Shown here piece by piece: positions 22,237 through 42,944 of a stretch of 64,000 nucleotides of DNA. The DNA comes from Candidatus Nanoarchaeia archaeon (lineage in GTDB: Archaea > Nanobdellota > Nanobdellia > Woesearchaeales > JACQSR01). A model generated the notes under the pieces. It did not search any database. It worked only from the letters and a program-made list of their open reading frames with translations, and had not been told where the DNA came from. The translations under genes were made by a program, and so were the position numbers. The DNA is taken from positions 6,418-70,417 of the forward strand of contig DATDYF010000037.1 of the NCBI GenBank assembly GCA_035289105.1, written 5' to 3'. Position 1 is the first letter of the stretch. Each line of letters starts with the position of its first letter.

Positions 22237-22284
22237 ATGCTTGGTGCTGCTTTTCATTCCCAATTTCGAGGCTTAACAAGCCTA

Positions 22285-22400
22285 TTATCCCCGAATCATA
22301 GATTTTTTCCAGGTTATGTGCCATTTTTTTGCGAGAAAATTTGGTTTTTCTAGGTTAGGCGTAATTTCAACAATATGTTTCTTAAGAAAGGACAACTATT
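22285..22400 (-). pseudogene. Frameshifted remnant of a third MNT-type nucleotidyltransferase
   Basis: About 100 nt (22285-22385) is about 85 percent identical to 41597-41698 inside the intact NTase gene. The reverse translation 'KKHIVEITPNLEKPNFLAKK' then shifts frame at an A-run and stops. Confidence 0.5.
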
Positions 22401-23380: not shown

Positions 23381-24868
23381 CTATAGCAAATAAACCAAAA
23401 CGAAGCCAGCAATAACCAAGGCTATAAACAAACAAGTTTGAGGCTTTTTAAATTTCCAAAGAAACCATGGGAGCCCATGCTTAAAGGAAAATTGTATAAA
23501 ACTTAATGTGCTCGGCACAAAAGCTTTATTGAGATGCATTCTTGCTAATTTCAAAAGATTGTAGGTCTTACTATATAATTTTACATACAATTTTTCGAAT
23601 TTCTTCTTAGGCAGCTTTGTTGGTAGGATAATATTCACGTTATTATAGAGATCATAATTCTTGGTTGTGATTTTGTTTTTTTGTTCTTGATAAAGATCCG
23701 AACCAGGTAATGGGGTGAGTATAGAAAACATTGGATAAAATAAGTGACTATTTTCTTTGTCGAGTTTTTTAACATAATTTAGTAAGGCTTTGAAATCGTT
23801 TTCTTCAAACTCAGGAAGAATAATAAATGATCCAAAAGTTATGATCCCATTATCCGCAAGAATTTTTGTTGCTTTCTCATTATTTTCAATAGTGTTTCTT
23901 TTATTCATCTTGTTGAGAGCTTCAGAACTGATGGCTTCAAAGCCAACAAACACTTCCAAAAGTCCTATTTCCCTCCATTTTCTAATAAGGTCAGGATTTC
24001 TGGCTATCGTATCTGATCTGGCGATAAAATAATATTTCTTTTGTATCCCTTTTTCTTTTATAAGCTGATATATTTTTTCTGCTCTTGTTGTATTTTCAAG
24101 AAAATTATTATCGCAAAAGACTATATATTTTTCAGGCATTTGTTCCAGTTCATTGACGACTTTCTCGGGGCTTTTCACTCTGTATTTTTGCTGGCTAAAT
24201 TTCCATACCGAACAAAAATTACAGTTATAGGGACAACCCCTTGTCGTATCAATGGTGCCAACTGAACGCCAATAGAAACTACTGTATTTTTTTCTATACT
24301 TGTCAACTAGGTGTCGTGCAGGTGCTTTTAACTCTTCCAATGGCATTAAGTCTCTGACCGGGTTATGGATTTCTTTGCCATCCTTCACAAAAGAAATATT
24401 TTTTACTTGTGACACCTCCCCTCCTTTAACCAATACACCAACAAGTTCTTGAAACGCTAACTCACCATCGCCTCTAACAACAAAATCAACTTCAGATTCG
24501 CTTAAGAACTCATGAGCAAGGAAGGTTGCTACGTGGCCTCCTACAACCACTTTTATTCCACTATCAAATTTCTTTATTTCTGTAATTAGATCTTTAATTA
24601 AATTCACATTAGTGGTATAATTGCAGCTTGTTCCAATAATCTCTGGTTTGAATTTTTTGATTGCTTTTGTGAGATTTCCATCAATTCTCATATCGAGAAT
24701 ATCAACTTCATGACCATGATCTAAGAGATAAGCAGCGAGATACTCTAAACCCAAAGGTTCAAGAACATTTGACTCATCAAATCCAGGAACTAAACTTTTT
24801 TTAGAAGTTACGCAATCCGGCTGCACAAGTAGGACTCTCAAAATAACACCTCTTAATATGCAGCTCAA
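23381..24868 (-). CDS. B12-binding domain radical SAM protein
   Basis: N-terminal cobalamin-binding fold (VLLVQPD..LGLEYLAAYL). Radical SAM 'GCPYNCNFC'. 495 aa. Confidence 0.83.
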   Translation of the reverse strand: MSCILRGVILRVLLVQPDCVTSKKSLVPGFDESNVLEPLGLEYLAAYLLDHGHEVDILDMRIDGNLTKAIKKFKPEIIGTSCNYTTNVNLIKDLITEIKKFDSGIKVVVGGHVATFLAHEFLSESEVDFVVRGDGELAFQELVGVLVKGGEVSQVKNISFVKDGKEIHNPVRDLMPLEELKAPARHLVDKYRKKYSSFYWRSVGTIDTTRGCPYNCNFCSVWKFSQQKYRVKSPEKVVNELEQMPEKYIVFCDNNFLENTTRAEKIYQLIKEKGIQKKYYFIARSDTIARNPDLIRKWREIGLLEVFVGFEAISSEALNKMNKRNTIENNEKATKILADNGIITFGSFIILPEFEENDFKALLNYVKKLDKENSHLFYPMFSILTPLPGSDLYQEQKNKITTKNYDLYNNVNIILPTKLPKKKFEKLYVKLYSKTYNLLKLARMHLNKAFVPSTLSFIQFSFKHGLPWFLWKFKKPQTCLFIALVIAGFVLVYLL

Positions 24869-25017
24869 CTACCCTTTATATATTTTTCCCTGTGAGGAGT
24901 TTTAGGATTTAATATCTATTACGGTTCGGAGATGCTGGATAAAACCGAAATCTTTATATAGAAAAAAATTGATAGCGGTATTTTAACGGCCCAATTAGGG
25001 ATAAAAAGGGGAGAATA

Positions 25018-25158
25018 ATGAAAAAAGTGTGTTCCGTCCTACTGATTTCTGTTCTTATGATTCTCTCTGCGCTGGCCGTCACTGCGAAAGACTGTGAATG
25101 TGATACTGTTGTTACAAATATTGCAATACCCTCCGATCTAATTTCAAAAAGACACTAA
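25018..25158 (+). CDS. Small secreted ORF (46 aa) paralogous to the N-terminus of the giant protein. Possibly a 5' cassette or gene remnant.
   Basis: Signal peptide then 'AKDCECDTVVTNIAIPSDLI', compared with giant protein 'IKDCECGDTVVADYTFSSDLV'. SD 'aaaggggag' precedes the ATG. TATA 'ctttatata' about 60 nt upstream. Confidence 0.4.
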   Translation: MKKVCSVLLISVLMILSALAVTAKDCECDTVVTNIAIPSDLISKRH

Positions 25159-25161
25159 AAA

Positions 25162-25437
25162 ATGGCACGAAAAAACGATTATGACTGGATAAAAATAGTT
25201 GCCTTGTTCATATCGGTTGTTGTGGTGCTAATCATAGCAATAAGCATACGGAATGGGCTAACATCGGATAATATACTTTCAGGGGCAATTACCTTTAAGG
25301 GGCCCAACCCCCATTTATATACTGGACCTAATCCTTTCGGGGAACCTGTTGATATGGAAGCAGCTGTTGCTAGTTATTGTGGCAAAGGTATCTTAGATGC
25401 GGCCCTTGAGGCAAATATTTGTGGAGTGCCACAATGA
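25162..25437 (+). CDS. Small membrane-anchored protein (91 aa). Overlaps the start of the giant gene.
   Basis: Starts 'MARK' within 'aaaatggcacgaaaaa'. The same start context 'aaaatggcacggaaaa' recurs at the giant gene. One TM helix. Confidence 0.42.
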   Translation: MARKNDYDWIKIVALFISVVVVLIIAISIRNGLTSDNILSGAITFKGPNPHLYTGPNPFGEPVDMEAAVASYCGKGILDAALEANICGVPQ

Positions 25438-28400
25438 AAATGGCACGGAAAATAAGGATTTTGTTGCTCGTTTCTTTGATTACCATCATTTCGGCATTTA
25501 GCGCATCAGCAGCAGACTGCGGAAATGGCATCAAGGATTGCGAATGCGGGGATACTGTTGTAGCAGATTATACGTTTAGCTCTGACCTTGTCTGCGACGG
25601 CTCTTCAGGCCCTGTTAGCGGCCTTGTTGTGGGGAGCGATGTGCAGTTGAGCTGTGCTCCTGATGTTAAGATTGAGTGTGCTCCTGGAGTCAAGGATGGA
25701 GGGTCTTGCGAAACTGGAATTTCTATTTCTGCCAGCAACGATATAAGCATAACAGGCTGCACAATCATCGGATGGGATCGCGGAGTAAGGATAGGCAGCG
25801 GCTCTAGCAACATCAATATTACCCTAAACAAAATCTTGCACAACATTCAAGGCATTTTGGTTACGGGAGCCGGAAATAACATCACAATCAGTTATAACAC
25901 TGTATCAGGAAATGGGGTTGAATCTTCCCCTGGGGAAGGAGGGGTTTTGGGAAATTGCGGCGATGGAATAGACAATGATGCAGACACACAAGTGGATTGC
26001 GCGGACAGCGAATGCTCTTTTGATGTCCTGTGCGGAGGGCCTGGGCAGGGATACTTCGGCGGCAGCATCATGGTCTTGACTGTCCACGGCCAGGACAATA
26101 TCCAAATCATCGGGAACACAATTAACGACACTTTTGTATTCGAAAACAGGGGCGCCATTCATATCGGAGGCAGTAATGGCAATATTTCCAATCTTGTAAT
26201 CAGCAACAACACTATATATAATGTTCCCCTCTTCCCGGGAATATCTTTCTCCTTTGTCGGGATTATCAATTTGACGATAAGCAACAACTCGTTAACCAAT
26301 GTCGGAATAGGACTTGGATTTGGTTTTGCTGCGCCAGTTGAAAATGGCATCATCTCGGGAAACAGCGTGACCTGTTCAGGATTGAGTGCTACTCTTGGAG
26401 ATATCGGCATGATGGTAGCGGGAACAGCGGATGTCACCGGTAATATGGTTAATGACTGCGACATAGGCATATTTGCTACATTCGCAGGTCTTGCCCCGGG
26501 ATTTGTGCCCTCTCCAATATCCATTGACGCAAACACAGTAACTTCAAATTTCGGCACTGGAATCTGCACAGACATAGCCTTTGCCACTCTTGAAAACAAC
26601 GTGATATCCAATGGCATTATTGGAATTGCAGACCTCCTTGAGGAGTTTGACCCCGGCAACTGGCAGTCTGGAATAACAATACTCTTTAACTCTTATGCCG
26701 CTGTCCAGAAGGAAATATGCCGGGTTAGATCGCCTCTTGTTGGAGGATGCTTGCAGTTTGCAGAAGACGCATTGGCCGGAACGGTTAATCTGGATGCTTT
26801 GTGCGGTACAGGAGAGCCGCCGTTCTTTTGCCCTATTCAATTTAATTTCATTGTTGGCGGGCAGTTGTATGATGCTCCGGGAGGGGTTGTATATGTTTTC
26901 AAAGAATCAGAAGCCCAGGCTTGCGGCATAGACACCAGCGACGGTGTCCAGGATTATGAGTCGGGTTTGCCTTTCGGCTGTCAGGCTATAACTCAGACTT
27001 GGACTTGCAATGGAATTGCTGGTGGAACATGCAGCATAACGTTAGGTGATCCAGGGCCGGCAGGATATGTTGCGATTGCTTTCGATCATCCTCCAGGCTC
27101 ACAACCGCCGCCTAGTGTAGCTGGTGCTGCCGTATTCGGCGAATCATTATGCGGGGGCCAAGTTGATATCAATGAATTTGGCGGGGAAACCAACTGCGGA
27201 GACGGCATAGACAACGACAATGATGGAAGAATTGATTGCCAGGATGGTGATTGCCAGGGGTCTCCAAGTTGCCCAGGCTGTGTAGTTACCATGAACTGGG
27301 TTGACGAAAACCAACAGCCAGTTAATGCGCCATATGGGAATATTTTATTGCTTTCCTACGATGAAATTAACAATGATTGCGGTATCGACCTCAGTCAGGG
27401 AGTTACTACGGACATCTTCCAGGTATTCGGAAACCCATGTATTACCCAGGTACAAATTTGCGGATTATTCAGCGGAGAATCATTGTCAGACGGGCAATGC
27501 GTCAGCCAGGTTAACATAGCCGCTGGCGACCAAATTGTTGCAGTTGCAATTGGCTCTTTTGGCGCTGAGGAAATCCAGAGTGTGCAGGATTCATGCGAAA
27601 ACGGCTTGGATGATGACGGCAATAACCTTGTAGATTGTGCTGACCCGGCTTGCGCCCCTGCAAGGAATTGCGGACCTTCAAACTCCTTGGTTGGAGGGGG
27701 AATATTTGGGCCACAGGCATGCGGAGGCTCAGCAACAATCGGTCCCCTTGGAGGTCCAGAAGGGTGCCCTCTCACGTTTACTGCATTTGGTGAAAACAAC
27801 AACCCAGTTCCTGACGGTTCGTATATATTTACCTTGGAAACAGCTGTTATTAGCACCATTCCCTACGAATCACCTCAAGGATCGGGCAATTTTATCCTGA
27901 TAGATCCTTCAGATGGCATCGACTTTGATGAATGGTTTGGATTGCTCATCGCAGCTCAAAATGGGCCTCCGCCTGGATTAGACGGTGGGTGTATCTCGCC
28001 CCAAGGCCAGCCAATCCCAACCAGTGGCGGAACCTGTCAGGGAAGTTTAGGGGAACTTTTCCCCGGGAATCCTAATGCACCACACACCGTGGTTGTGCTC
28101 TACGATGACTTTATGAATCCAACACAAATAATTTCACAGAACTATAACTTCCTTACTTGTGGTGGACAGGTTATTATTGGAGAAAGCGGTCCTGAAGTTG
28201 GCGATTGTACAATTACCTATAGCTTTGTCGATGGCCAATCGCAGCCTATCGATGCTCCGAATGGAGGGGTTGTCATATTTAGCCAGAACGCGCTGCAGGC
28301 ATGCGTTGGTACATTTCCGCCCCCGGAGCCAGGAGAAGAGGATTGCAATGCTATCTTTAATCCGTCAGATGGGGTCATGGGCGGTGAAATTAGATGCGCC

Positions 28401-31400
28401 TTTACCTGCCCCGGTGCAAATGTAGGTACCTGTCCCATTAATCTATTTCAGGGAACTCCTGGAATTCCAGGTGGAAGCTGTACCTCCACTATTCTTGGTT
28501 CAGCAAGTCCCGATTACATGATAGCAATTGCTTTGGATACATTTAGTGGGCCGCCTAGCCTTTTTGGCACAGCAACCTTTACAGATGCTGAGTGCGGAAC
28601 AGAGATAATTCCTGGCCAGGTTACGATAGTGGCCGTAGGCGGACCCCCTCCAGGTGCGCTTCAGGTGCTTGTCCTGGAAGGTTCAAACCCCCCAGTAAGC
28701 CCGCCAGGTGCAATAGTCCTTGCCTTTGACGCCACTCAGCTTGAGGCCTTTTTGGGAACTGCTGTTCCTTATGATTTGTCTCCCACGCAGATGCAGAATT
28801 TATTTGCAGATTTAGACCTTGGGCCGGGAGCCGGACAATCTGGCTTTATAGGCGGATGTTTCGGCGAACAGGGGCCTTCACCAACAGGTGCAAATGGCAT
28901 GTGTGATTTGTCATTATTCTTCGGAGATCCAACAGGCCCTGTTGTTGTATTGGCATTCTTGAATTTAGATTTTCAGGCGCCAGATCCTAATTTTATTAAG
29001 ACAAGAGGAGTATACATCGATGGGCCGCCGCCCTCTCCAATCACCATCATCTTCCCCGCCCTTAACCTTTTTGTAGAGAGCGTTACTGCTGCCTCGCCAA
29101 TGGTCTCAGTTACTGCAGGGGCAACAGATGACACAATTGCATACCTTACCCTTTTCGATGGAAGTCCATTCGCCGGTGCAATCCGTATTGAAACAAGGGC
29201 AGTTGCCTTAAGGGTAAATGCTCCAATAACGGAAGTATTTGAAGTGCCGGACAGCCCCTCCACAACCGGAGGAAGCCTTCATGCATTCTTTGCGCAGGTT
29301 TCACCGATTAACGACCTCTTCCCGCAGGATAATGTAAAAGCAGAGGTAAGGCCAAGCATCCTGGCATCTGTAACTAGCAGCAGCAGCACAAAATCCAACT
29401 CTGTCCGTGATTTCTCCTTCACAACAAGTGTTGATGATTACGTTCCTTCCGCAGCCGATTCATTGGTTATCATCGTTCCTGATTTCGGCAAGAGCAAAGC
29501 AGATTATAGCGCCATTGCAGAAAAGCTTGCGCAATCAGAAAAACGGGTATTTGTCATTGACCCTGTTGGGTATAAGGGAACAACCAGTACGGTAACCACC
29601 AGCGACCCCCTCTTCAAAGGGAACAACCTCCGAAAATGGAAAGAGAAGGACCGATTATTGCCTATTTCTGCACAGTTGTGCGCTCTTATTCCTCAATTGA
29701 AGGCCGAAACTGGCCTTGCCAGTGCAACAATCATCGGGGATGGCATGGGCGGGGCAATAGTTAACACCCCGGAATTGGTCTGTTCAGCGCAGGCAAATGC
29801 TTTGGTTTCTACGGGGGCTTACTGCAAGCCGGTCACTTTCAGCGAAGGCGGCCCAAAATCCGCTGTTCCGTATTTCAATCTTAAGGACGGAAAAACCCCA
29901 TGTGAACTGCCCCCTTCATCAGTGCCCTCTTTGGTTTTGCAAGGTGATGAAGAGAAGCCGCAGGGGGATTTGTGGTTCTTCAAGTTCAAGAACAAGAAGC
30001 CAGTTACCTACGGCCTTATCCAGGGCGCCCAAGATTCATTCATAACAAACAGTTTCGCCGGAACACCGGAGTTTGATAATGCAGAGATATACATCAAATC
30101 CTTTATCGAAAAGGAGACAGGCGGTGCATATACTCAGTTGGAGAACGACCTTAACTTGAGGCCGGAGCTTGTCCATCTTTTATTGGAAGATGTCAGGGCA
30201 AATGATGATGCGGTAAAGCCCAAAGACACTCTTGTTTCCAATGATGGCTTCAATCTTTTCGCCATTGAAAGCGCAGACTTAAGCAGCACCCCCACAGGAT
30301 GGGCTGTTGGCTCTGTTGTGGATATCGAAGATGTCAAGGACGACTTTGCCAACTTCATGACCAACGCCCTGAAAATCAGCGCAGGCGAAGCAACTCAAAA
30401 GGTATTTGTTAAGGGAAGCTTTGAAAATCCCGATTCAGGCCAGCTTGTTTTGAACTACAAGGTTCTTGCCCCAAGCACCAACCCGGTTGACAGCTCCGCA
30501 AAACTAAGGCTGGACTTCAAAGACATGCAAGGCAACTCGCTTGCCTGCATTGAATTCCATTCCACAAACCTTCCGGTAAGTTCCACATGCAGCTTTGCCA
30601 TTGCGGTCTCCTCAGGAAACGACGGCAGGATACAGGAGATAAGCAACATCCCAGTCTCCGAGATACTAAAGTCTGTTGGGGCCTTCACAACCAAGATATT
30701 CTCAGTTGACATCGAAATCAGTTCTGACAGTCCCTTTTATTATGATGATGTCGAACTCCTGCTTGAAGAAGATGTTTTGGAGGTGAATGAAGCAGACTTT
30801 TTGGATTTAACTTCTCACACAGCCACCTTCACATCGCCAATTATAAACATAAATGCGGGAGAGCAATTAACATCCATCCTGCCCCTGTTCGTGGCAGAAG
30901 ATGGCGCATCAATTACCGCTGATGTTCTTGATGAATTTGATATTCCCATAATTTCAGGAATTGAGCTTAATTCTGCAGCTAATCTTATGGCATTCCACGA
31001 AACGCTCAAGGGGCTGGATTCATTAAAAGTGCGGTTCAACCTTGATCCGGGAGTTACGCTGTACAAATACTATGTTGTTGCCAAGCCTGTTGATGTGTTT
31101 GATACAAACATTAATGGGGTGGAGGTAAACTCGCTCTTGCTTGACGAGCAGGGCTCCCATTCCGATTACAGCGTTGCATTTAACCTGAACAACCCTGGTG
31201 ACTTTGACTTAATTTCAGCCGGGGAAACATTAAGCTCCGATGCCATCTCATTCGGTGTTGGTGAAATCTACAATCGCGTGGTAAAAACGGATAATTCAAT
31301 CACAAGGAGCGATGCTAATAATGGAATCACTGAAACCGATGTTAGTAGCTCATCAGGCACTGTTGATTCATTTATAACCTTGTTTGATTCGAGTGTCGAT

Positions 31401-34400
31401 ACGATAACCCAGGATATTAACTTTGGGGCTGGGTGCCATGTTGAGGTGGATGATGTCGTAATGACATCGGCTTTCACAACCAACAAGCTTATAGATATTG
31501 TATGCCCTAATGAAGAATTTACACTGACGCCCTTTTACGGCGCTTCAAATATAGAGTTGAATGAAGTAAAGGTAGACCCTGTCGATGCTACAAAAGACAC
31601 TGTAGGGGATTTGGACAAGCTGGAGGTAAGGGATGACAGCGCACTTACGAAAACAGCCGGAGAGTCTGTTCTTGAGGAAGGATATGACTTTTCCTTGCTC
31701 CAGGACTTCCTGCAAAATGACATTTATCAGTTCCTCCTGGATAACGGAATAAACGATTCGCTTACCCAGTTTTTCAAAAATCAGCTGGATAAGTCAGCAG
31801 ATGGTGTACTCAAGAGAGACCAGGTTTTAGAAACTGCATTCCTTGGCTTGTTGGGCGGGGATAATAATTTCTCAACAATAATGGATACTGAAGTGCAGTT
31901 CACGGCTACAGGCATCAGGCTTATCACAAGGACACAGGGAAATTCAATATTGTCCAGAACCATTGGCATTTCAAGCTCATTAAACTCAGACAGGTTTTCA
32001 ATAAAGGGGCCTGGATTGGCAGAAGGCAAATGCACCTCAACAAGGGCAATCGTCCTGGAATCTAGCCTGATTACGCCTAAAGGCCTTTCTGTCTCGGATT
32101 GCGTTGATATTTTTGTAAGGGGAGAATCAAAGGACCTGGCACAGGACGTTAACAGCATTGACCAGCTTGCAAAAGAAGCCGTTAGCCCAAGGCTTGATAA
32201 GGAAATGGTTGATACTGTGCTTGATTCAGCCAAAGATAACGTAACGCCCAGGCGCGGCGTTATCTCAATAGGCGGCAGCTTTGACATGAGGGATTCAACA
32301 ATATCCGCCTTGGATGACTTGGGCTTTATTGGAATCTCTGTTGCCGGAAACAGCTTTGTTGAAAACTCTGAAGTTTTGGACTTCCAATACTTTCAAAGTT
32401 CAGCGGGATGCAATTTCATTGGCTCAGTATTTGAAAGCAGCGCAATTGACCTTCTTGAGGAGGAAAATAGGAATGCGGCAGAGAACAGAAACAGCGAACA
32501 GCTGGACTTCGCCAGGCAATTCCACGGCGTTTCATGCTCAAGTGTTGATACCGGGCCTGCCAATGCCTTGGACCAAAGCCCCTCAGGCAATTATAAGCCT
32601 TCAGATGTTGCCACAAGCAGCGTAGCTGAGGCCACGCTGAAGATATTTGAGATGGACGACCCTTGTGTTTTGAGTGTGGCAGAGGGAGGCAGTGTTTGCG
32701 ATAAAGTCCTTGCTGACTTGAATGCAAGGGATGTGCCGATAACCATAAGGTCATTTGGCGAGGCAGCAGACCAGCTTAACTTGGCAGATATTGCATTTAA
32801 CCAGGATCTTACTAATATCAAGGTGTCCGAAATTGGAAAAATCCCAAGTTCATTATCCTCCATTACATTCAAGGGCATACCATTAGACCAGATTATGGCA
32901 ACAGACATTCTTGACGAAATAAACAACAATCAAAAAATTGACGAGGTTAACGCCATAAGGACTAATATAGAAAACACAGGGATAGACAATAACGCTGATG
33001 AATTGCTGACGGAGGGCGAGGAGATAGCGCAGCCCGGCCTGCTCGATGCAAATTTAGCTCCAGTCTCGTACAGCGGCTTAATGGTTGAAACACCGGTAGA
33101 AGACCTTGATGTTTGCCTGTTAAGCCTGCCTGACGGAACCGGCATATGCGATGTCCGCATAGACCAGGACACCATAATTGAGGATTTGGGCATAACCTTG
33201 TGCGGCCTGAAAAGAAATGGAGTCAGCATATGCAATATTATAACTGATGACCTGAATGATAACCCCACTTTAGATACAGTGGGATATGAGGCAGAGTACC
33301 AGGTTTCAAAGAACGGCGATGTTGACGTATCAGAGCTTTCATTGGGGGATTTGGCTATCGGCGACAGGGGCGATTCTGTGCCGTTTACTGCATTGGACAC
33401 CTCAATCAATAATGTAAAGTTCTGTGACCTCCAGCTTGAAGGGGTCTCCGTTTGCAATGTAGTTGCAGGCAAAACAGCTGTGGAGCAGGCAACTGACTTT
33501 ACAGGATTGGATGCCTTCGACATTATTCAGAAGCTGGAAAATATTCCCGACATCAGGGAATCTGATTACACTGGCTCCTTTGATTACCTTATGGAGAATC
33601 TTAACTTCTGCGCAAATTATGCTGGTTATATTGACGCTGAATTAAGGAAAGAGAATAATCTCGATTACCTGAGGGTTGATAAGTCATTTAAGTTCGGAAA
33701 TGTGGCCAAGCTCCACATCGATGGCATGTGCAGTGTTCAGTTGGACCAAACAAGCCTGTGCGATTTGGAAGGAAACGATGTATACGGGCCCGTCATACAA
33801 AATTCAGCGGCCATAAGCGATTCCTGCAATAATGCTGCTGGAGACTTTGGGTCATGCGTAACAAACCTCAAGGAGCTTAATTCATGCCAGCTGACAATAG
33901 GCGGAGTTTCGGTATGCAGCGTGGAGGTTTCAAAAGGGCTCATTAACGACCAAACTGTTTATGCCGGATTTAACATAACCAAGCTGCAAATTAATGGGCT
34001 TTGCGCGCTGGCTTACAAGGGAATAAGCATTTGCGACACTTCAATAGATAAGGTGTTCAACTTTACAGAATCCCAGGGCACGCTTGAAGCAGCTACCGGC
34101 GAAGAATTGATATCTGCGTGCGACCTGACCTTTAACGGCATTAACCTGTGTTCTGGCCATCAATTTGATGATGAGTTCTGCGACCAGGCAAAAATAGACG
34201 GCGTAAGCGTATGCAACAGCAGATGGGACAACAGGCTTGTTGATGATGAACTAATCACCGAAGCTGCGCAGGGCCAGGTATTTAATGATGCCCGAGATGG
34301 AGGAACATTCGGCGATGAGCAAAAACAAAGGCTTCTAAGGCCGAGCGTTTGCGACTTGGAGATAAATGGCACCACATTGTGCGATGCCGTTGCTCTAGTA

Positions 34401-37400
34401 ACATTTACCAACACAGTGCTGCCTGGCGAATCACCTGCAGACTTTGTATTGGACCACACCGTACTTGAGTTTGTTAGTATGGATGAAACCAAGGTTAACC
34501 TTCTATTGATAGAGCTCGGGGAGAAATGCAATGAGCTGTTTATCAATGTAACTGATATCATCAACAAAACAATACCTAACATAGAGCATAAGGGAGTTCC
34601 GCTGTCAGAAATGACTTTATGCGATGATGTTGAAATCAATGGCTTAAGCCTGTGCGATGCCAATTTAGTATTGATAAACGATAGCGACATCCTTGATGTG
34701 GTGCTAAATGGGGATGTTGTAGGCCAGATGGATTTAAGGGCCCTCCTCACAAACCTCGTCTTTGCCTTAACTTATGATGTAGGTGGAGAAACATTCAATG
34801 ATGCGACTGGAACAATAGGGGACATATTGGACCTGAGGGAAGTAAGGCTTGGCTCTTCCAACCTTCTCGATAACGTGCTCCTTTCTTCCAATTCCATAAG
34901 GAATAGCGAAGTTGATGTGCTGACAAGGCTATTTATGGATTACTCAATAGGCACCCTCTCGAAACCGCAAAGGACTCTAACATTCGACAATAAGAAGGCA
35001 ATTGAAGTGTTGGATATAACATTAAACTCTTATGACCAATTCAACCTGGATTGCGCTATAGCGAAGGAGATTCAGAGCAAGGTAGATTTGGAGGGCACTG
35101 AAATTGATTCTCCGATAAGCAAGGTTGAGTTGTGCGATGTGTTTGGCATTCCTACACCCTTAAGCAATGCGCAATTTGGAATCAGCTCCTACTCACCGCC
35201 TATTGGAAGTCTTAAGGAGGGCAGCCTAACGGTTAATCTTAACAGCGTAGAGTTTAGCGATTTCACTCTTGAAACGCTGTATAACCTTACTGAGTTCGAT
35301 TCAGAAACATGTGATATTCACAACAATGAATTTACGGATGCAGCTGTATCAATCAATTGCGAATTAAGCGCAACGGGAAATAACTTCTTTGGCAAGGACC
35401 TTAGCGATGGCGGTGACTTAATCCTTGGGTCGCCTGGCGCATTAGTAGTAGCTGTACCGGATGATGACGATAAAGTTGAAATATCCGGAAACAGGTTTAA
35501 TTTCAACCACATGGGAGGCCCTGGATTGGTGGGCGCAGCAGAAGTTGATGTATCTAAAAACGATTTCGTGGACCCATTGTTTAACGCACAATACATAACT
35601 GATTCCAGGAATTATCTGGAGCAGTTCATTGTAAAAGAGAACCTCGACACTGTAGATATAAACGACAACGTGCTTGTTGATAGAGTTGAAAGCAGGATAA
35701 GCAGGGATGAAGCCAAGGAGCTCGCTAATACCGCTGACAAATACAATCTTGTTGACGACAGGTATGCGGATTTAGCTTCGGATAGGTCAGAAATAGCAGA
35801 GCTTAATAGGGCATTAAGCCAGCTTAATGATATAGACATTGAAAGCATCCAGCTGACAAATGAAATTGCCGATATGTTTGGCATAGATATATCGAGAGTT
35901 GAAACATTGCTTAATAGGGAATTAACACCGATAGATATTTCAAACCTCGATGTGGATAACACCCTAAATATAGAGAGGAATTACTACAGGGGCTTTAACA
36001 GTGTTAGGGCATATTTGCCCGAGCTAATAATCCCGGGAAATCTCAACTTTGCTACAGAGACCTCAGTGTTTATTTATCCAAAGAAGCGCGTATCCTTCGT
36101 TGGCAACGCCATCGTTGACAATCCGCCTATAAAAATAAAATCAAAAGAGGCGATTGACATCTCTAAGGTATTATTGCTGAATAACTTCAGGGCTGGCTGT
36201 GAAATTGATGATGCAGCCGGCATGAGAAACTGCGCCGATGTTGAGTTATCAACCATGGCGGAACCGCCAGAGATTTCAGGTGCAACCGCTGCGTCATTGG
36301 ATAGGGATGAGGATACTGTGCCTAACCATGTTGACAACTGCCCATTCACCCCAAATACTGGCCAGGAAGACACGGACTTTGACACTTTAGGGGATATGTG
36401 CGATAACTGCGATGATTTCAACCCTGACCAGTTTGACAGGGACCTTGATGGGATTGGAGATGTATGTGATAATGATAGGGATGGCGACGGCATTGCCAAT
36501 CCGGCAGATGCCTGCCCAAATGCCTTCGATCCGGGCAATTCAGCGGAAATATGCAGTGGTTGTGTTGATTTGGATGCAGATACATTCTACGCCTTTGATG
36601 CGGATGAATGCACTGGGGGCAATGACTGTGATGACAGCAACGCAGCAGCAAACATCTTTAGATTGGAGGCATGCAATAATCTGGATGACAATTGTAACGG
36701 CCAAACTGACGAATCCGTGCTCCAGAGATGCGGTGCTAGCGATGTAGGAGAATGTACTTTTGGAGTTGAAGCTTGCTCAGCAGGAAGCTACATTGGATGC
36801 ACTGCAATATTGCCCACTGCAGAGGTTTGCGATGGCTTGGATAATGATTGCGATGCAATAGTGGATGAAGGGATTGCTCCACAGCAGTGCGAAGTTACTG
36901 ATGCTGGAGAATGCAGATTTGGATTAAGGAGCTGTGAAGGAGGCGCATTCAGTTCTTGTGTGGGCAACATTGATCCAGTAGCAGAGATATGCGATAGCCT
37001 TGACAATGATTGTGATGGGCAAGCAGATGAAAGCGCTGCAGGCGGAGACCTTACAGAGGTTTGTGGCACAGATGTAGGCGCATGCCAAACTGGCGTGAGA
37101 ACGTGCTCTGCAGGAGGATTTGGAGTATGTGTGGGAGAAATTGCTCCCGTAGGGGAGACATCCTTGGCCTGCAACAACATAGATGATAACTGCAATGGAG
37201 TAATAGACGATGGTTATGATAGGGATGATGATGGCTTTACGAGCTGTGATACGCCAAAACCAGACTGCAACGACAACGATCGGTCAATTAATCCGGATGC
37301 GCCTGAAAGATGCAACGATGGCATAGACAACAACTGTGATGGCAAAGTAGACTTTGGCGATACAGTTAACTGCCCTGCTGCCGATAAGGTATCTGTTGAG

Positions 37401-38453
37401 CTGCACACAATAGACCAGGCAAAAACTAATTATTGCGGTGCAGGAAGGGGCAGCTGCAAGGAGCCGATACAAGGTGCTAGGGTAAAAGTCTTTGACAGGG
37501 ATAACGCTGACTTCCAGAGCGCGTTCACCAAGAATCCAAGCGGCACTTTATACGATGTGGTCTATGAGTCTGACATTGGCTTGATTGGCAGCTGCATTAC
37601 TGACAGCAGCGGCAGTTGCCTTGCAGTGGAGCAAGGTGCTGGCACTTACCTAGTTATAATCAAATATGTAGACGAGGAAACAAACTCAAATATATATGTA
37701 GGCAGGCCAAAGTCCCCATCTGACTTCGTTGATGTGAATGGCGACGGCAAAAGGGATATGGCAACAAAAGAAATACAAATAATTAAAGTCCTCGAAAAGG
37801 GCGGCAGGATTACCTTTAGGGGAGGAAGCAAAATCGTTGTTACAGGCTCAGAATTAGTGGTTATTTCAGCTGATAATGTGATTTGGATGAATGACAGGGA
37901 AGTTTATCCGTTCATATTCACTTCAGATGCTGACTGGACTGTGGATGTCTGCATGCAAATACCTGCGGGCTACCGAATAGAAGGTGTGCTGGATGAGAAT
38001 GGAAACGTAGTAACTACGGCAAATTGCGCGCAAACGTTTGTATCCGGCGAGGCTAAAGTAGTTATTTTCTCAGTAGTTGAAGTAGGCAGTCCGGAGCCTA
38101 ATTTCGGATTCACATTAACTACAAAGCATAATGGAAAAACTCAAACGGCAAAGGGGACAATAAATGGCATAAGGCAAAAAACGAAAACCCAATTGCAAAA
38201 GCAAATATCAACTAAAGTTAAGGCAGCTAAACAGGAAATAGCTAATCGCCAAGCAAAAAGCCAAACAAAAGAGACAGCTTCTCCACTAACCTCCAGAGCA
38301 GTAATCTCCAGGGCAGCAATGAGTTCAGCAACAGCATCAGAGCCTGTTGCGCCAAATGGAAATCTGACTTTCATATTCGCAATTTCTTCTATAGCCCTGC
38401 TTGTGTTATTGCTGGCAGTTATATATATCTACAAGGAAAGGGCAGCAAGATAA
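25419..38453 (+). CDS. Giant secreted cell-surface protein (4344 aa). Contains signal peptide, parallel beta-helix, three CGDGIDND Cys motifs, C-x9-C repeat array, TSP3-like Ca-binding repeats, MopE-like Cys-rich repeats, CarboxypepD_reg-like domain and a C-terminal TM anchor.
   Basis: Single uninterrupted 13035-nt ORF. N-terminal 'KIRILLLVSLITIISAFSASA'. PbH1-like 'ISNNTIYNV/ISNNSLTNV/ISGNSVT'. 'NCGDGIDNDNDGRIDCQDGDC' appears three times. 'DTDFDTLGDMCDNCDDFNPDQFDRDLDGIGDVCDNDRDGDG'. 'CDGLDNDCDAIVDE/CDSLDNDCDGQADE'. 'GARVKVFD..TDSSGSC..GTYLVI'. C-terminus '..LTFIFAISSIALLVLLLAVIYIYKERAAR'. Confidence 0.9.
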   Translation: MWSATMKMARKIRILLLVSLITIISAFSASAADCGNGIKDCECGDTVVADYTFSSDLVCDGSSGPVSGLVVGSDVQLSCAPDVKIECAPGVKDGGSCETGISISASNDISITGCTIIGWDRGVRIGSGSSNINITLNKILHNIQGILVTGAGNNITISYNTVSGNGVESSPGEGGVLGNCGDGIDNDADTQVDCADSECSFDVLCGGPGQGYFGGSIMVLTVHGQDNIQIIGNTINDTFVFENRGAIHIGGSNGNISNLVISNNTIYNVPLFPGISFSFVGIINLTISNNSLTNVGIGLGFGFAAPVENGIISGNSVTCSGLSATLGDIGMMVAGTADVTGNMVNDCDIGIFATFAGLAPGFVPSPISIDANTVTSNFGTGICTDIAFATLENNVISNGIIGIADLLEEFDPGNWQSGITILFNSYAAVQKEICRVRSPLVGGCLQFAEDALAGTVNLDALCGTGEPPFFCPIQFNFIVGGQLYDAPGGVVYVFKESEAQACGIDTSDGVQDYESGLPFGCQAITQTWTCNGIAGGTCSITLGDPGPAGYVAIAFDHPPGSQPPPSVAGAAVFGESLCGGQVDINEFGGETNCGDGIDNDNDGRIDCQDGDCQGSPSCPGCVVTMNWVDENQQPVNAPYGNILLLSYDEINNDCGIDLSQGVTTDIFQVFGNPCITQVQICGLFSGESLSDGQCVSQVNIAAGDQIVAVAIGSFGAEEIQSVQDSCENGLDDDGNNLVDCADPACAPARNCGPSNSLVGGGIFGPQACGGSATIGPLGGPEGCPLTFTAFGENNNPVPDGSYIFTLETAVISTIPYESPQGSGNFILIDPSDGIDFDEWFGLLIAAQNGPPPGLDGGCISPQGQPIPTSGGTCQGSLGELFPGNPNAPHTVVVLYDDFMNPTQIISQNYNFLTCGGQVIIGESGPEVGDCTITYSFVDGQSQPIDAPNGGVVIFSQNALQACVGTFPPPEPGEEDCNAIFNPSDGVMGGEIRCAFTCPGANVGTCPINLFQGTPGIPGGSCTSTILGSASPDYMIAIALDTFSGPPSLFGTATFTDAECGTEIIPGQVTIVAVGGPPPGALQVLVLEGSNPPVSPPGAIVLAFDATQLEAFLGTAVPYDLSPTQMQNLFADLDLGPGAGQSGFIGGCFGEQGPSPTGANGMCDLSLFFGDPTGPVVVLAFLNLDFQAPDPNFIKTRGVYIDGPPPSPITIIFPALNLFVESVTAASPMVSVTAGATDDTIAYLTLFDGSPFAGAIRIETRAVALRVNAPITEVFEVPDSPSTTGGSLHAFFAQVSPINDLFPQDNVKAEVRPSILASVTSSSSTKSNSVRDFSFTTSVDDYVPSAADSLVIIVPDFGKSKADYSAIAEKLAQSEKRVFVIDPVGYKGTTSTVTTSDPLFKGNNLRKWKEKDRLLPISAQLCALIPQLKAETGLASATIIGDGMGGAIVNTPELVCSAQANALVSTGAYCKPVTFSEGGPKSAVPYFNLKDGKTPCELPPSSVPSLVLQGDEEKPQGDLWFFKFKNKKPVTYGLIQGAQDSFITNSFAGTPEFDNAEIYIKSFIEKETGGAYTQLENDLNLRPELVHLLLEDVRANDDAVKPKDTLVSNDGFNLFAIESADLSSTPTGWAVGSVVDIEDVKDDFANFMTNALKISAGEATQKVFVKGSFENPDSGQLVLNYKVLAPSTNPVDSSAKLRLDFKDMQGNSLACIEFHSTNLPVSSTCSFAIAVSSGNDGRIQEISNIPVSEILKSVGAFTTKIFSVDIEISSDSPFYYDDVELLLEEDVLEVNEADFLDLTSHTATFTSPIININAGEQLTSILPLFVAEDGASITADVLDEFDIPIISGIELNSAANLMAFHETLKGLDSLKVRFNLDPGVTLYKYYVVAKPVDVFDTNINGVEVNSLLLDEQGSHSDYSVAFNLNNPGDFDLISAGETLSSDAISFGVGEIYNRVVKTDNSITRSDANNGITETDVSSSSGTVDSFITLFDSSVDTITQDINFGAGCHVEVDDVVMTSAFTTNKLIDIVCPNEEFTLTPFYGASNIELNEVKVDPVDATKDTVGDLDKLEVRDDSALTKTAGESVLEEGYDFSLLQDFLQNDIYQFLLDNGINDSLTQFFKNQLDKSADGVLKRDQVLETAFLGLLGGDNNFSTIMDTEVQFTATGIRLITRTQGNSILSRTIGISSSLNSDRFSIKGPGLAEGKCTSTRAIVLESSLITPKGLSVSDCVDIFVRGESKDLAQDVNSIDQLAKEAVSPRLDKEMVDTVLDSAKDNVTPRRGVISIGGSFDMRDSTISALDDLGFIGISVAGNSFVENSEVLDFQYFQSSAGCNFIGSVFESSAIDLLEEENRNAAENRNSEQLDFARQFHGVSCSSVDTGPANALDQSPSGNYKPSDVATSSVAEATLKIFEMDDPCVLSVAEGGSVCDKVLADLNARDVPITIRSFGEAADQLNLADIAFNQDLTNIKVSEIGKIPSSLSSITFKGIPLDQIMATDILDEINNNQKIDEVNAIRTNIENTGIDNNADELLTEGEEIAQPGLLDANLAPVSYSGLMVETPVEDLDVCLLSLPDGTGICDVRIDQDTIIEDLGITLCGLKRNGVSICNIITDDLNDNPTLDTVGYEAEYQVSKNGDVDVSELSLGDLAIGDRGDSVPFTALDTSINNVKFCDLQLEGVSVCNVVAGKTAVEQATDFTGLDAFDIIQKLENIPDIRESDYTGSFDYLMENLNFCANYAGYIDAELRKENNLDYLRVDKSFKFGNVAKLHIDGMCSVQLDQTSLCDLEGNDVYGPVIQNSAAISDSCNNAAGDFGSCVTNLKELNSCQLTIGGVSVCSVEVSKGLINDQTVYAGFNITKLQINGLCALAYKGISICDTSIDKVFNFTESQGTLEAATGEELISACDLTFNGINLCSGHQFDDEFCDQAKIDGVSVCNSRWDNRLVDDELITEAAQGQVFNDARDGGTFGDEQKQRLLRPSVCDLEINGTTLCDAVALVTFTNTVLPGESPADFVLDHTVLEFVSMDETKVNLLLIELGEKCNELFINVTDIINKTIPNIEHKGVPLSEMTLCDDVEINGLSLCDANLVLINDSDILDVVLNGDVVGQMDLRALLTNLVFALTYDVGGETFNDATGTIGDILDLREVRLGSSNLLDNVLLSSNSIRNSEVDVLTRLFMDYSIGTLSKPQRTLTFDNKKAIEVLDITLNSYDQFNLDCAIAKEIQSKVDLEGTEIDSPISKVELCDVFGIPTPLSNAQFGISSYSPPIGSLKEGSLTVNLNSVEFSDFTLETLYNLTEFDSETCDIHNNEFTDAAVSINCELSATGNNFFGKDLSDGGDLILGSPGALVVAVPDDDDKVEISGNRFNFNHMGGPGLVGAAEVDVSKNDFVDPLFNAQYITDSRNYLEQFIVKENLDTVDINDNVLVDRVESRISRDEAKELANTADKYNLVDDRYADLASDRSEIAELNRALSQLNDIDIESIQLTNEIADMFGIDISRVETLLNRELTPIDISNLDVDNTLNIERNYYRGFNSVRAYLPELIIPGNLNFATETSVFIYPKKRVSFVGNAIVDNPPIKIKSKEAIDISKVLLLNNFRAGCEIDDAAGMRNCADVELSTMAEPPEISGATAASLDRDEDTVPNHVDNCPFTPNTGQEDTDFDTLGDMCDNCDDFNPDQFDRDLDGIGDVCDNDRDGDGIANPADACPNAFDPGNSAEICSGCVDLDADTFYAFDADECTGGNDCDDSNAAANIFRLEACNNLDDNCNGQTDESVLQRCGASDVGECTFGVEACSAGSYIGCTAILPTAEVCDGLDNDCDAIVDEGIAPQQCEVTDAGECRFGLRSCEGGAFSSCVGNIDPVAEICDSLDNDCDGQADESAAGGDLTEVCGTDVGACQTGVRTCSAGGFGVCVGEIAPVGETSLACNNIDDNCNGVIDDGYDRDDDGFTSCDTPKPDCNDNDRSINPDAPERCNDGIDNNCDGKVDFGDTVNCPAADKVSVELHTIDQAKTNYCGAGRGSCKEPIQGARVKVFDRDNADFQSAFTKNPSGTLYDVVYESDIGLIGSCITDSSGSCLAVEQGAGTYLVIIKYVDEETNSNIYVGRPKSPSDFVDVNGDGKRDMATKEIQIIKVLEKGGRITFRGGSKIVVTGSELVVISADNVIWMNDREVYPFIFTSDADWTVDVCMQIPAGYRIEGVLDENGNVVTTANCAQTFVSGEAKVVIFSVVEVGSPEPNFGFTLTTKHNGKTQTAKGTINGIRQKTKTQLQKQISTKVKAAKQEIANRQAKSQTKETASPLTSRAVISRAAMSSATASEPVAPNGNLTFIFAISSIALLVLLLAVIYIYKERAAR
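33108..34670 (+). repeat. Array of about 11 degenerate C-x9-C repeats (consensus C-D-L-x-h-x-G-h-S-h-C-D/N) inside the giant protein
   Basis: VCLLSLPDGTGICD, LCGLKRNGVSICN, FCDLQLEGVSVCN, MCSVQLDQTSLCD, SCQLTIGGVSVCS, LCALAYKGISICD, ACDLTFNGINLCS, FCDQAKIDGVSVCN, VCDLEINGTTLCD, LCDDVEINGLSLCD. Confidence 0.6.
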
Positions 38454-40915: not shown

Positions 40916-41368
40916 TCAGGGAGACAATCCTTTTTCCTTTATTATTCTATCAATCTTTTTGATGATGCCGTTATGGAAATCCAATATTTCCTTGGCTTCC
41001 TCGACGCTGACGGTTTGGCCGTAATACTTTGAGCCGTTTCTTTTGTATCTGAACCTATCGAGCGTTTCCAGCATTTGTATATTAAAATTGAATTTTGCAA
41101 GATAGGCAAACGAAGCCTGATGGGAGTAGGATTTATAACCTTCTATTGCTAAAACTGCGTCTGCAAAATCCCTAAGCGCGTCATAGACATTCTCAAAGAC
41201 GATTTTTGGGTAGTTCTGGGTCAACAGTGACTTCGAGTCCTTGATTCTGCTATTCATATCCCTAACAAGTGATTTTGCTAAAGCTAAATCGGGCGCTGCC
41301 TTTTTTACTTCGCCAATCTCAAGGTAATAGTCAAAAGGTTTCATAATCAAGGTAACCAAACAGTACAA
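40916..41368 (-). CDS. HEPN domain protein (partner of MNT)
   Basis: 'FRYKRNGSKYYGQ' paralogous to 21814-22236. Overlaps the upstream NTase gene by 38 nt. Confidence 0.7.
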   Translation of the reverse strand: MYCLVTLIMKPFDYYLEIGEVKKAAPDLALAKSLVRDMNSRIKDSKSLLTQNYPKIVFENVYDALRDFADAVLAIEGYKSYSHQASFAYLAKFNFNIQMLETLDRFRYKRNGSKYYGQTVSVEEAKEILDFHNGIIKKIDRIIKEKGLSP

Positions 41369-42521: not shown

Positions 42522-42944
42522 CTATTCCTTCGGCGCTTCCGGCCTTATCTTGGGCAACGGTATTGGCGGAGGCAGATTTACATCCTGGCTTAGGATTAAT
42601 GCCTGAACATTGCATTTTGTAAGAACCGTGTTAAGAATTTCCGTCATTATCTCCTTAGGCACTCTCTTGTCTTTCTTCCAGCCCTCCATTATTTCTTTGG
42701 AGCGCTTAGGGTCGGACATGAACATTGTTGAGCCGCCAAGCATAATGCTTCCAATCTCGGGGTCGTATTTTGAGGTGAATTCAAAAGAAAATTTCAGCGT
42801 ATTCTGCTTTTCCTTTCCAAATGTGACATCCTGCGGCTCTATGTTCACAATGGAAACATTGTTGCTTATGTTAATCTTTCCGCCCTTTCCGATATCCGAT
42901 TTAGTGACATTGATTTTGTTGAATCCAAACCCGACTACTGCCAT
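42522..42944 (-). CDS. Hypothetical protein
   Basis: 140-aa ORF with no recognised family. Confidence 0.45.
   Translation of the reverse strand: MAVVGFGFNKINVTKSDIGKGGKINISNNVSIVNIEPQDVTFGKEKQNTLKFSFEFTSKYDPEIGSIMLGGSTMFMSDPKRSKEIMEGWKKDKRVPKEIMTEILNTVLTKCNVQALILSQDVNLPPPIPLPKIRPEAPKE

What the first reader, a model, noticed from the sequence alone, without database searches (positions are those of the whole stretch)
25018..25450. Two small ORFs echo the N-terminus and start context of the giant gene
The ORF at 25018-25158 has a signal peptide followed by 'KDCECDTVV..PSDLI', paralogous to residues about 30-55 of the giant protein. The ORF at 25162-25437 and the giant gene both start inside 'aaaatggcacg(a/g)aaaa' and encode M(K)ARK. 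These look like duplicated 5' modules. Possible explanations are remnants of rearrangement, alternative leaders, or a substrate for recombinational switching of the exposed N-terminus.
Basis: seen in the sequence. Interest (0 to 1): 0.55.

Follow-up and report, generated by a model that had tools for sequence, protein, structure and literature searches.

The report
Leftover gene-start stub before giant gene
A 46-codon ORF upstream of a 4,337-residue surface-protein gene in a tiny groundwater archaeon really is a truncated copy of that gene's start, but it looks like a scar of an old DNA rearrangement, not a switch for changing the protein's exposed tip.

Summary
Both observations are real. ORF1 (25018-25158) has a signal peptide followed by KDCECDTVV..SDLI. 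This matches giant-protein residues 3-51 (tblastn E 4.6e-4; alignment score 84 against 33±4 for shuffles). ORF2 and the giant gene share the 16-mer AAAATGGCACGRAAAA, which occurs nowhere else in the window. The ORF1 echo is at protein level only. Synonymous sites are saturated and just 11 nt are identical. Much of the 16-mer is a favoured start context, since a third gene has AAAAATGGCAGAAAAA.

The best reading is that ORF1 is a 5' stub left by a rearrangement that placed ORF2 between the stub and the intact gene. The window holds a younger copy of the same layout: HAD stub 46296-46448, a 256-aa gene, then intact HAD. ORF1 keeps the only consensus promoter in the interval. ORF2 and the giant gene follow with stop-start spacing of 3 nt and an ATGA overlap, so I infer one operon.

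Recombinational switching is not supported. Eleven distinct strain contigs from independent assemblies show one fixed junction and there are no donor cassettes.

Strains do differ sharply in the giant protein's N-terminal tip, starting at 25562 immediately after the shared motif. This is an imported divergent allele (dS 0.85), not ORF1 sequence.

The parts
24948..24960 (+). BRE/TATA-type archaeal promoter AAATCTTTATATA, 65 nt before the ORF1 ATG. It is the only consensus promoter between the radical-SAM gene and the end of the giant gene's 5' region.
   Evidence: The window's own consensus is AAA..TTTAWATA, found about 30 nt before 18 gene starts. No box of 6/8 or better lies at -28..-33 of the ORF2 or giant starts. 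Function is inferred.
25008..25013 (+). Shine-Dalgarno-like GGGGAG, 4 nt before the ORF1 ATG.
   Evidence: Read directly from the sequence. This is weak evidence, because SD-like motifs precede only 10 of 49 crude gene starts.
25018..25158 (+). ORF1, 46 codons. It has a Sec-type signal peptide (aa 1-23) followed by KDCECDTVVTNIAIPSDLISKRH. It is a truncated paralogue (5' stub) of the giant gene's start.
   Evidence: It was called as a gene in 3 independent assemblies. By accession numbering it is not annotated in the NCBI record.
25102..25112 (+). GATACTGTTGT (codons D-T-V-V). This is the only stretch identical at DNA level with the giant gene (25551-25561), and it is codon-aligned in both.
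   Evidence: repeat family D5.
25159..25174 (+). Start context AAAATGGCACGAAAAA of ORF2. The ORF1 stop TAA is followed by 3 nt and then the ATG.
25162..25437 (+). ORF2, 91 aa. It has an N-terminal membrane anchor (WIKIVALFISVVVVLIIAISI) and a roughly 60-aa tail with 2 Cys. It is restricted to this lineage and lies in the same frame as ORF1.
   Evidence: NCBI annotates it as HLC65270, a hypothetical protein.
25434..25452 (+). Junction ATGAAAATGGCACGGAAAA. The ORF2 stop TGA (25435-25437) overlaps a possible giant-gene start at 25434 (an ATGA overlap, giving MKMARK). The second possible start is 25440 (MARK).
   Evidence: Gene callers used 25434, whereas NCBI used 25440.
25440..38453 (+). Giant surface-protein gene, 4,337 aa. 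It has a signal peptide, a right-handed beta-helix/NosD region, acidic disulfide, MopE and TSP3 repeats, and a C-terminal membrane anchor.
25533..25592 (+). Giant-protein residues 32-51, KDCECGDTVVADYTFSSDLV. This is the motif echoed by ORF1.
25562..25805 (+). Strain-polymorphic patch with two alleles about 23% different. It starts at the base after the shared 11-mer. It is the start of a variable N-terminal tip region that runs to about 26180-26655 and breaks most assemblies.

Best explanation
ORF1 is a truncated 5' stub of a giant-type surface-protein gene, consisting of a promoter-proximal start, a Sec signal peptide and the first 19 or so residues of the Cys-rich N-terminal motif. A rearrangement (partial duplication, or homology-assisted insertion) left it behind and placed the small membrane-protein gene ORF2 between the stub and the intact gene.

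The stub kept the native promoter. I therefore infer that ORF1, ORF2 and the giant gene now form one transcription unit. In this model ribosomes load at ORF1, and ORF2 and the giant gene are started by termination-reinitiation at TAA-AAA-ATG and at the ATGA overlap.

The stub-versus-gene divergence has saturated synonymous sites and a conserved motif core. This most likely accumulated between functional alleles before or around the rearrangement. It does not show that the stub peptide has a function of its own.

What is shown: the paralogy, the layout, the absence of structural variants, and the parallel HAD stub. What is inferred: the single promoter, the coupling, and the order of events.
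For: 1. The paralogy is significant but confined to the signal peptide plus motif. No trace of the beta-helix continues in any frame of 25100-25445.
2. The same window holds a second, younger copy of the same layout. A 50-aa HAD-hydrolase N-terminal stub (46296-46448, Pfam PF00702 positions 1-26) is followed by an unrelated 256-aa gene and then the intact HAD gene at 47299. The two HAD copies are 94.5% identical over 91 nt.
3. That clearly non-functional HAD stub also shows synonymous changes far exceeding non-synonymous ones (pS 0.30, pN 0.014). A third gene-fragment relic lies at 22272-22385.
4. The only consensus BRE/TATA box lies before ORF1. Neither ORF2 nor the giant gene has a box at the genome's usual -30 position.
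5. Stop-start spacings of +3 nt and -4 nt are those at which termination-reinitiation coupling works in archaea (PMC6728339, PMC10666635).
6. The locus from 24862 to 25561 differs at only two single bases across the strain contigs, which come from at least 9 samples.
7. In the only relative found (P0002, 70% identical), an ORF1-like signal peptide (18 of 24 residues identical) sits directly upstream of ORF2 and in frame with it, without the motif and without the stop. The stub is therefore old, and its content differs between lineages.
Against: 1. No transcript or proteome data are available, so the single-operon and coupling steps are inferred from sequence only.
2. The ORF1 signal peptide is 75% conserved against P0002, which is at least as good as ORF2's own membrane anchor. 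This hints that the stub is under selection, for example as a translated leader cistron, and is not a pure relic.
3. P0002 reads as one continuous 120-aa ORF, and ORF1 and ORF2 share a frame in the window. ORF1 plus ORF2 may therefore once have been a single gene and not a stub plus an insert.
4. No sister genome was available to order the events.
5. The left edge of the strain-variable patch coincides exactly with the shared 11-mer. I attribute this to crossovers resolving in a conserved island, but it rests on a single haplotype boundary.
Confidence: 0.55

Rival explanations
1. ORF1 and ORF2 are the two halves of one ancestral small membrane protein with two hydrophobic segments, as in the 120-aa relative P0002. 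In the window's lineage a roughly 54-nt patch from a giant-gene allele (DCEC..SDLI) and a stop codon split it, and ORF2 is now restarted at the Met two codons after the stop.
For: P0002 is one open frame: signal peptide, then KKNTKK, then MARKND and onward. ORF1 and ORF2 are in the same frame, separated only by TAA-AAA. Aligned back from MARK, the stop falls opposite a Lys, which is a TAA/AAA single-base difference. This is inferred from protein only. With a strongly basic loop, an N-out/loop-in/C-out hairpin topology is plausible.
Against: P0002 is a single 586-nt contig with no retrievable DNA, and its long ORF may only reflect the gene caller taking the longest frame. The ORF1/P0002 signal peptide itself resembles the giant protein's (8-9 of 22 residues), which fits a duplicated 5' module. 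The TAA is fixed in every contig that covers ORF1, and ORF2 shows no decay.
Confidence: 0.22
2. ORF1 is a functional leader cistron or small secreted peptide. One version is that its signal peptide brings the translating polycistronic mRNA to the membrane translocon ahead of the coupled ORF2 and the 4,337-aa protein. Another is that its 22-residue mature peptide mimics the giant protein's N-terminal cap.
For: ORF1 has the promoter, a leader and an SD-like site. Its signal peptide is 75% conserved in P0002. The motif core has 0 non-synonymous against 8 synonymous differences over 12 codons.
Against: The HAD stub shows the same synonymous-rich signature without any conceivable function. The mature-peptide motif is absent from P0002, so it is dispensable. 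No homologue of ORF1 exists among 5.8 billion proteins. The mRNA-targeting idea has no direct evidence here.
Confidence: 0.15
3. The repeated motif and start contexts are substrates for programmed or frequent recombination that switches the giant protein's leader or exposed N-terminus. One route would be deletion between the two GATACTGTTGT copies, which would fuse ORF1's signal peptide in frame to giant residue 42.
For: Both 11-mers are codon-aligned, so a deletion between them would be in frame. Strain variation in the giant gene begins at 25562, the base after the 11-mer. Four contigs end at 25557-25562.
Against: Only 11-12 nt are identical. All the contigs recovered, including 7 found through the radical-SAM gene independently of ORF2, carry the same junction. 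The variant allele is a homologous divergent allele (dS 0.85, dN 0.18) and is not ORF1-derived. There are no other cassettes in the window and no flanking inverted repeats.
Confidence: 0.05
4. The similarities are chance plus generic signal-peptide composition.
For: Signal peptides resemble each other. Part of the 16-mer is a favoured start context.
Against: The mature-part score has a z of about 7.8 against shuffles. tblastn gives E 4.6e-4 to 9e-5 with composition correction. The motif lies at the same position just after the signal peptide and is unique to these two sites.
Confidence: 0.03

Closest known systems
5' gene stubs left by partial duplication or by homology-assisted insertion of foreign DNA (homology-facilitated illegitimate recombination, or Campbell-type single crossover; named from my own knowledge)
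   Same: A short copy of a resident gene's 5' end sits upstream of an intervening gene, followed by the intact resident gene. The homology is limited to the first 100-160 nt. The window contains a clear second example at the HAD gene.
   Different: The event itself was not observed. The ORF1 copy is far more diverged than the HAD copy (pS 0.85 against 0.30). ORF1 also retains the operon's only promoter, so it is probably still transcribed and translated.
Translational coupling by termination-reinitiation at ATGA or very short stop-start distances in archaea (PMC6728339, PMC10666635)
   Same: ORF2 and the giant gene show an ATGA overlap if the start is at 25434. ORF1 and ORF2 are 3 nt apart. 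There is no independent consensus promoter for the downstream cistrons.
   Different: Coupling is untested here. The cited work links such pairs to subunits of complexes, whereas here the first cistron is a 46-codon stub. NCBI places the giant-gene start at 25440, which is +2 nt and not an overlap.
Silent-cassette gene-conversion systems for surface antigens (Neisseria pilE/pilS, Borrelia vlsE, Anaplasma msp2; named from my own knowledge)
   Same: A truncated copy of part of an expressed surface-protein gene lies next to it, and the expressed gene has a strain-variable exposed region bounded by a conserved motif.
   Different: There is only one stub. It copies the conserved leader and motif, not the variable region. 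It has its own promoter and start. It shares 11 nt of identity with the giant gene. The population variants are not derived from it.
Short intragenic recombination tracts diversifying giant surface-protein genes (Apilactobacillus kunkeei Giant1-5, PMC12863079)
   Same: A divergent patch (dS 0.85, dN 0.18) sits in an otherwise clonal background, with 1 SNP in 10.4 kb upstream and 1-9 differences in the remaining 10 kb of the gene.
   Different: This is an archaeon. The variation is confined to the N-terminal tip (about aa 42-250 or 400) and is not spread along repeats. Only two to three haplotypes were seen.

Membership tests
Sec-type signal peptide (ORF1 N-terminus) | A positively charged n-region, a 10-20 residue hydrophobic h-region, and small residues at positions -3 and -1 of a c-region. 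| tested here: met
   The n-region is MKK. Kyte-Doolittle 15-residue windows exceed 1.8 from residues 1-10, with a maximum of 2.97. V-T-A precedes K24 by inspection. No dedicated predictor was available, and cleavage is untested.
Right-handed beta-helix / NosD proteins (giant gene; ORF1 as a member?) | Beta-helix repeats detectable by PF13229 / PF05048 above the gathering score. | tested here: not met
   The giant protein passes (PF13229 33.8 bits against 25.9; PF05048 26.1 against 23.6; residues 86-166). ORF1 has no Pfam hit, and no beta-helix remnant follows it in any frame. ORF1 copies only the segment that precedes the helix.
5' stub from partial duplication or insertion | Homology to the neighbouring intact gene is confined to its 5' end, and the layout is stub, intervening gene, then intact gene on the same strand. 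| tested here: met
   Searches cover ORF1 and the giant gene.
Translational coupling by termination-reinitiation | Co-directional genes with a 4-nt or 1-nt overlap or only a few nt between stop and start. | tested here: met
   TAA(25156-58)-AAA-ATG(25162), and ATGA at 25434-25437. The distance dependence is taken from PMC10666635.
Translational coupling by termination-reinitiation | Downstream translation depends on upstream translation on one mRNA. | not testable with these tools
   The support is indirect only. There is no consensus TATA at -28..-33 for ORF2 or the giant gene. The hairpin around the giant start is not significant (z -1.4).
Silent-cassette gene-conversion antigenic variation | One or more donor cassettes homologous to the variable region of the expressed gene. 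| tested here: not met
   tblastn of both N-terminal alleles against the window finds only ORF1, which covers residues 1-51 and lies upstream of the variable patch. A search of 5.8 billion proteins found no paralogue.
Silent-cassette gene-conversion antigenic variation | Population variants of the expressed gene can be traced to donor sequence. | tested here: not met
   Allele B (25562-25805) is a homologous divergent allele and not ORF1 sequence.
Diversity-generating retroelement target | A variable region that differs at adenine-templated sites from a nearby template repeat. | tested here: not met
   Substitutions are of all types and mostly synonymous (Sd 30.5, Nd 29.5; dN/dS about 0.21). 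No second copy of the patch exists in the window. A reverse transcriptase was not searched for.
Invertase-type switch (invertible promoter or shufflon) | Inverted repeats flanking the promoter or the 5' segment. | tested here: not met
   Only short, imperfect inverted pairs at chance level occur in 24300-27000. All contigs have one orientation.

The most novel reading that the evidence does not exclude
The conserved Cys-rich motif KDCEC(G)DTVV may be the fixed left anchor of a swappable, hypervariable tip on a giant attachment protein of a DPANN archaeon. The ORF1 stub would then be functional: a translated, signal-peptide-bearing leader cistron that brings the mRNA to the membrane, or a standby leader that can be fused in frame to the tip by deletion between the two 11-mers. 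That would make the locus a new kind of archaeal surface-variation and expression module.
Probability: 0.08. Interest if true: 0.65.

Novelty: new member of a known kind. Interest (0 to 1): 0.3.

Why it matters
As a stub relic, the finding matters mainly for annotation. It explains a small unannotated ORF, it suggests that the giant gene of this Nanoarchaeia MAG is expressed from a promoter about 420 nt upstream through two short cistrons, and it shows that this reduced genome keeps several gene-fragment scars.

The more useful by-product is the variation pattern in the 4,337-residue surface protein. Variation among co-occurring strains is concentrated in the N-terminal tip, the end farthest from the membrane anchor, and starts right after a conserved motif. 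This points to the part of the protein most likely to contact a host or substrate, and it explains why assemblies break there.

Tried and rejected
1. ORF2 as a diverged duplicate of giant residues 1-92. Protein local alignments are not significant (p 0.09-0.25). A DNA local alignment against the whole gene is at chance. The global DNA score of the two 278-nt units is lifted mainly by the 16-mer.
2. A degenerate tandem duplication of about 430 nt (24863-25300 against 25302-25750). Six-mer matches peak on diagonals around 431 (z 3.8) and there are repeats at spacings of 439, 449 and 420. However, the global alignment is not significant (-81 against -90±8.5). This is left as a weak hint.
3. Homologues of ORF2. 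Only a 99% variant and the 70% relative P0002 were found. The exhaustive profile search added one spurious Ig-repeat hit, P0012.
4. Homologues of ORF1 and of giant residues 1-330. Only the queries themselves were recovered.
5. Sister genomes. GTDB representatives hold no ORF2 and no close radical-SAM orthologue (best 38% identity, in bacteria). The JGI metagenome scan returned only the same population.
6. A hairpin GTGCCA/TGGCAC around the giant start. It is predicted, but z is only -1.4.
7. Rfam search of 24700-25700 found nothing.
8. NCBIfam found nothing relevant for ORF1 or ORF2.
9. An AlphaFold2 single-sequence model of giant residues 1-330 had mean pLDDT 42.6 and was unusable, so no fold search was run.
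10. SD usage as an argument. SD-like motifs precede only 10 of 49 crude starts, so this is weak.
11. Reading dN far below dS between ORF1 and the giant gene as selection on the stub. I rejected this after the clearly non-functional HAD stub showed the same pattern.
Full report
**What is there**

The window comes from an uncultured DPANN archaeon. The exact proteins are in an NCBI MAG named 'Candidatus Nanoarchaeia archaeon' (CDC48 HLC65265, ORF2 HLC65270 'hypothetical protein', giant gene HLC65271 'MopE-related protein'). Identical DNA occurs in contigs from at least 9 samples in the ENA, JGI and Logan collections.

ORF1 (25018-25158) encodes MKKVCSVLLISVLMILSALAVTAKDCECDTVVTNIAIPSDLISKRH. ORF2 (25162-25437) encodes a 91-aa protein with an N-terminal membrane anchor. 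The giant gene (25440-38453, or from 25434) encodes 4,337 aa. It has a signal peptide, a beta-helix/NosD region (residues 86-166), acidic-disulfide, MopE and TSP3 repeats, and a C-terminal membrane anchor. Judging by the accession numbering, ORF1 is not annotated in the NCBI record, but three other assemblies call it as a gene.

**Checking the observation**

The ORF1/giant echo is real.
- The local alignment score is 84, against 32.7±3.8 for shuffles. The mature part alone scores 58, against 30±3.6.
- tblastn of the giant N-terminus against the six-frame window hits ORF1 at E 4.6e-4, or 9e-5 with the second allele.
- The motif is unique to these two sites, and in both it lies directly after a signal peptide.

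The echo is at protein level only.
- The only identical DNA stretch is GATACTGTTGT.
- Over 41 aligned codons pS is 0.85, which is saturated.
- The motif core (KDCEC, DTVV, SDL; 12 codons) has 8 synonymous and 0 non-synonymous differences.

The 16-mer AAAATGGCACGRAAAA occurs only at the ORF2 and giant starts. However, an unrelated gene at 43264(-) starts AAAAATGGCAGAAAAA, and 5 of 18 promoter-validated starts begin ATGGC(A/C). Most of the 16-mer is therefore a preferred start context. Beyond it, ORF2 has no detectable similarity to the giant gene.

**Anatomy and expression signals**

Many genes in this window have a BRE/TATA box (AAA..TTTAWATA) starting about 30 nt before the ATG, which means leaderless transcripts.

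ORF1 is preceded by a perfect AAATCTTTATATA at 24948-24960, 65 nt upstream, with GGGGAG 4 nt before the ATG. Neither ORF2 nor the giant gene has a box better than 5/8 at the usual distance. The downstream MMPL gene has its own 8/8 box.

ORF1's stop is followed by AAA and then ORF2's ATG. ORF2's TGA overlaps an ATG (ATGA, 25434-25437) that gene callers use as the giant start. These are the distances at which termination-reinitiation coupling works in archaea, and it is lost by about 20 nt (PMC6728339, PMC10666635). I therefore infer one operon, ORF1-ORF2-giant. This is not shown directly.

**Relatives**

ORF2 has only two relatives among 5.8 billion proteins: a 99% variant and P0002, which is 70% identical and 120 aa long. 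An exhaustive profile search added nothing real.

P0002 reads MKKASFVLLISVLALLSAFAVTSKKNTKKMARKND... This is an ORF1-like signal peptide (18 of 24 residues identical) running in frame into ORF2, without the DCEC..SDLI motif and without a stop. ORF1 and ORF2 are also in one frame in the window. The signal-peptide segment is therefore old and conserved, while the motif is dispensable. Its DNA could not be retrieved.

ORF1 and giant residues 1-330 have no other relatives. No sister genome exists among the GTDB representatives.

**Population data**

Eleven distinct contigs carry ORF2, and seven of them were also retrieved independently through the neighbouring radical-SAM gene. All show the same ORF1-ORF2-giant order. 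Bases 24862-25561 are identical apart from two single-base variants, at 25312 and 25526. No alternative junction was found.

At 25562, the base after the shared 11-mer, three contigs switch to a second allele.
- There are 57 differences in 244 bp, up to 25805.
- For this patch dS is 0.85 and dN is 0.18.
- Outside the patch dS is 0, and there is 1 SNP in the 10.4 kb upstream.
- Four contigs end at 25557-25562, and 10 of 11 end by 25974.
- Downstream contigs begin at 26178, 26655 or later.
- The remaining 10 kb of the gene differs at only 1-9 sites.

The variable region is therefore the N-terminal tip of the protein. It was imported by homologous recombination from a divergent allele. It is not ORF1 sequence, it is not DGR-like, and no donor copy exists in the window. 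The crossover at the motif is what one expects if recombination between diverged alleles resolves in the few conserved islands. It is a single haplotype boundary, so I give the coincidence little weight.

**A parallel case in the same window**

At 46296-46448 a 50-codon ORF is an N-terminal fragment of a HAD hydrolase (Pfam PF00702 positions 1-26). It is 94.5% identical over 91 nt to the start of the intact HAD gene at 47299. An unrelated 256-aa gene with its own promoter lies between them. This is the same stub, intervening gene, intact gene layout, but younger.

The HAD stub cannot be a working enzyme, yet it also shows pS 0.30 against pN 0.014. The synonymous-rich signature therefore reflects divergence between functional alleles and not selection on the stub. 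A third gene fragment, an NTP-transferase piece, lies at 22272-22385. This genome keeps rearrangement scars.

**Conclusion**

ORF1 is best explained as a 5' stub of a giant-type gene left by an old rearrangement that inserted or trapped ORF2 (confidence about 0.55). Because it kept the promoter, it probably still serves as the first cistron of the operon.

The rivals, in order:
- ORF1 plus ORF2 were once a single small membrane protein that has been split (0.22). This overlaps with the main view.
- ORF1 has a function of its own as a leader cistron or peptide (0.15).
- The repeats drive recombinational switching (0.05).
- The similarities are chance (0.03).

The 'remnant of rearrangement' option is supported and the 'switching' option is not. 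Interest is modest. The strain-variable tip bounded by the conserved motif is the part most worth following up.

Noticed in passing
window 46296-46448, 46497-47267, 47299-47952: A 50-codon N-terminal stub of a HAD hydrolase is 94.5% identical over 91 nt to the start of the intact HAD gene 1 kb downstream. An unrelated 256-aa gene with no Pfam hit lies between them, with its own AAATCTTTATATA promoter. This is the same layout as ORF1-ORF2-giant, and it is present in the strain contigs L021 and L024 as well.
   Followed up: yes
window 25562-25805 and 25916-25931, extending to about 26180-26655: The N-terminal tip of the giant protein is strain-variable. There are two alleles about 23% apart (dS 0.85, dN 0.18) in an otherwise clonal background. 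Contig L005 has a second small patch with 8 changes in 16 nt. Most assemblies break in this region, while the rest of the gene is nearly invariant.
   Followed up: yes
window 22272-22385 versus 41584-41698: A 115-nt stretch, 85% identical, lies in the low-GC spacer after the 21814-22236 gene. It matches an internal part of the paralogous NTP-transferase gene 41331-41861, which is on the minus strand. This is another gene-fragment relic.
   Followed up: no
window 42750-43000: A second strain-variation hotspot shows 15-19 differences in contigs L021, L024 and L027, against almost none in the surrounding 10 kb. It lies over small ORFs of unknown function (42522-42944 and 43010-43264, both minus strand).
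   Followed up: no
whole window, e.g. 892, 4814(-), 13066(-), 38490, 47978, 49717: Eighteen genes have a TTTAWATA box, often preceded by AAA.., starting about 30 nt before the ATG. This suggests that most transcripts in this archaeon are leaderless. ATGGC(A/C) is a frequent start (5 of 18).
   Followed up: partly
L027 (ERZ27254767) versus window 37669-37815: The first 146 nt of this contig do not align to the window, and the next 250 nt carry 12 differences. This may be a structural or allelic variant in the C-terminal part of the giant gene.
   Followed up: no
window 38340-38453: The giant protein ends ...PNGNLTFIFAISSIALLVLLLAVIYIYKERAAR. This is a single C-terminal hydrophobic segment followed by basic residues, so it is a membrane anchor or possibly a sorting signal of the archaeosortase kind. 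This was not tested.
   Followed up: no
P0011 (SRR3989344 read-derived protein) versus window 25414-25452: A 97-aa ORF2 variant carries N85H and V89G and has the stop replaced, so it reads through to the TAA at 25453-25455. Three changes within 8 codons look like read error and not a real allele.
   Followed up: no
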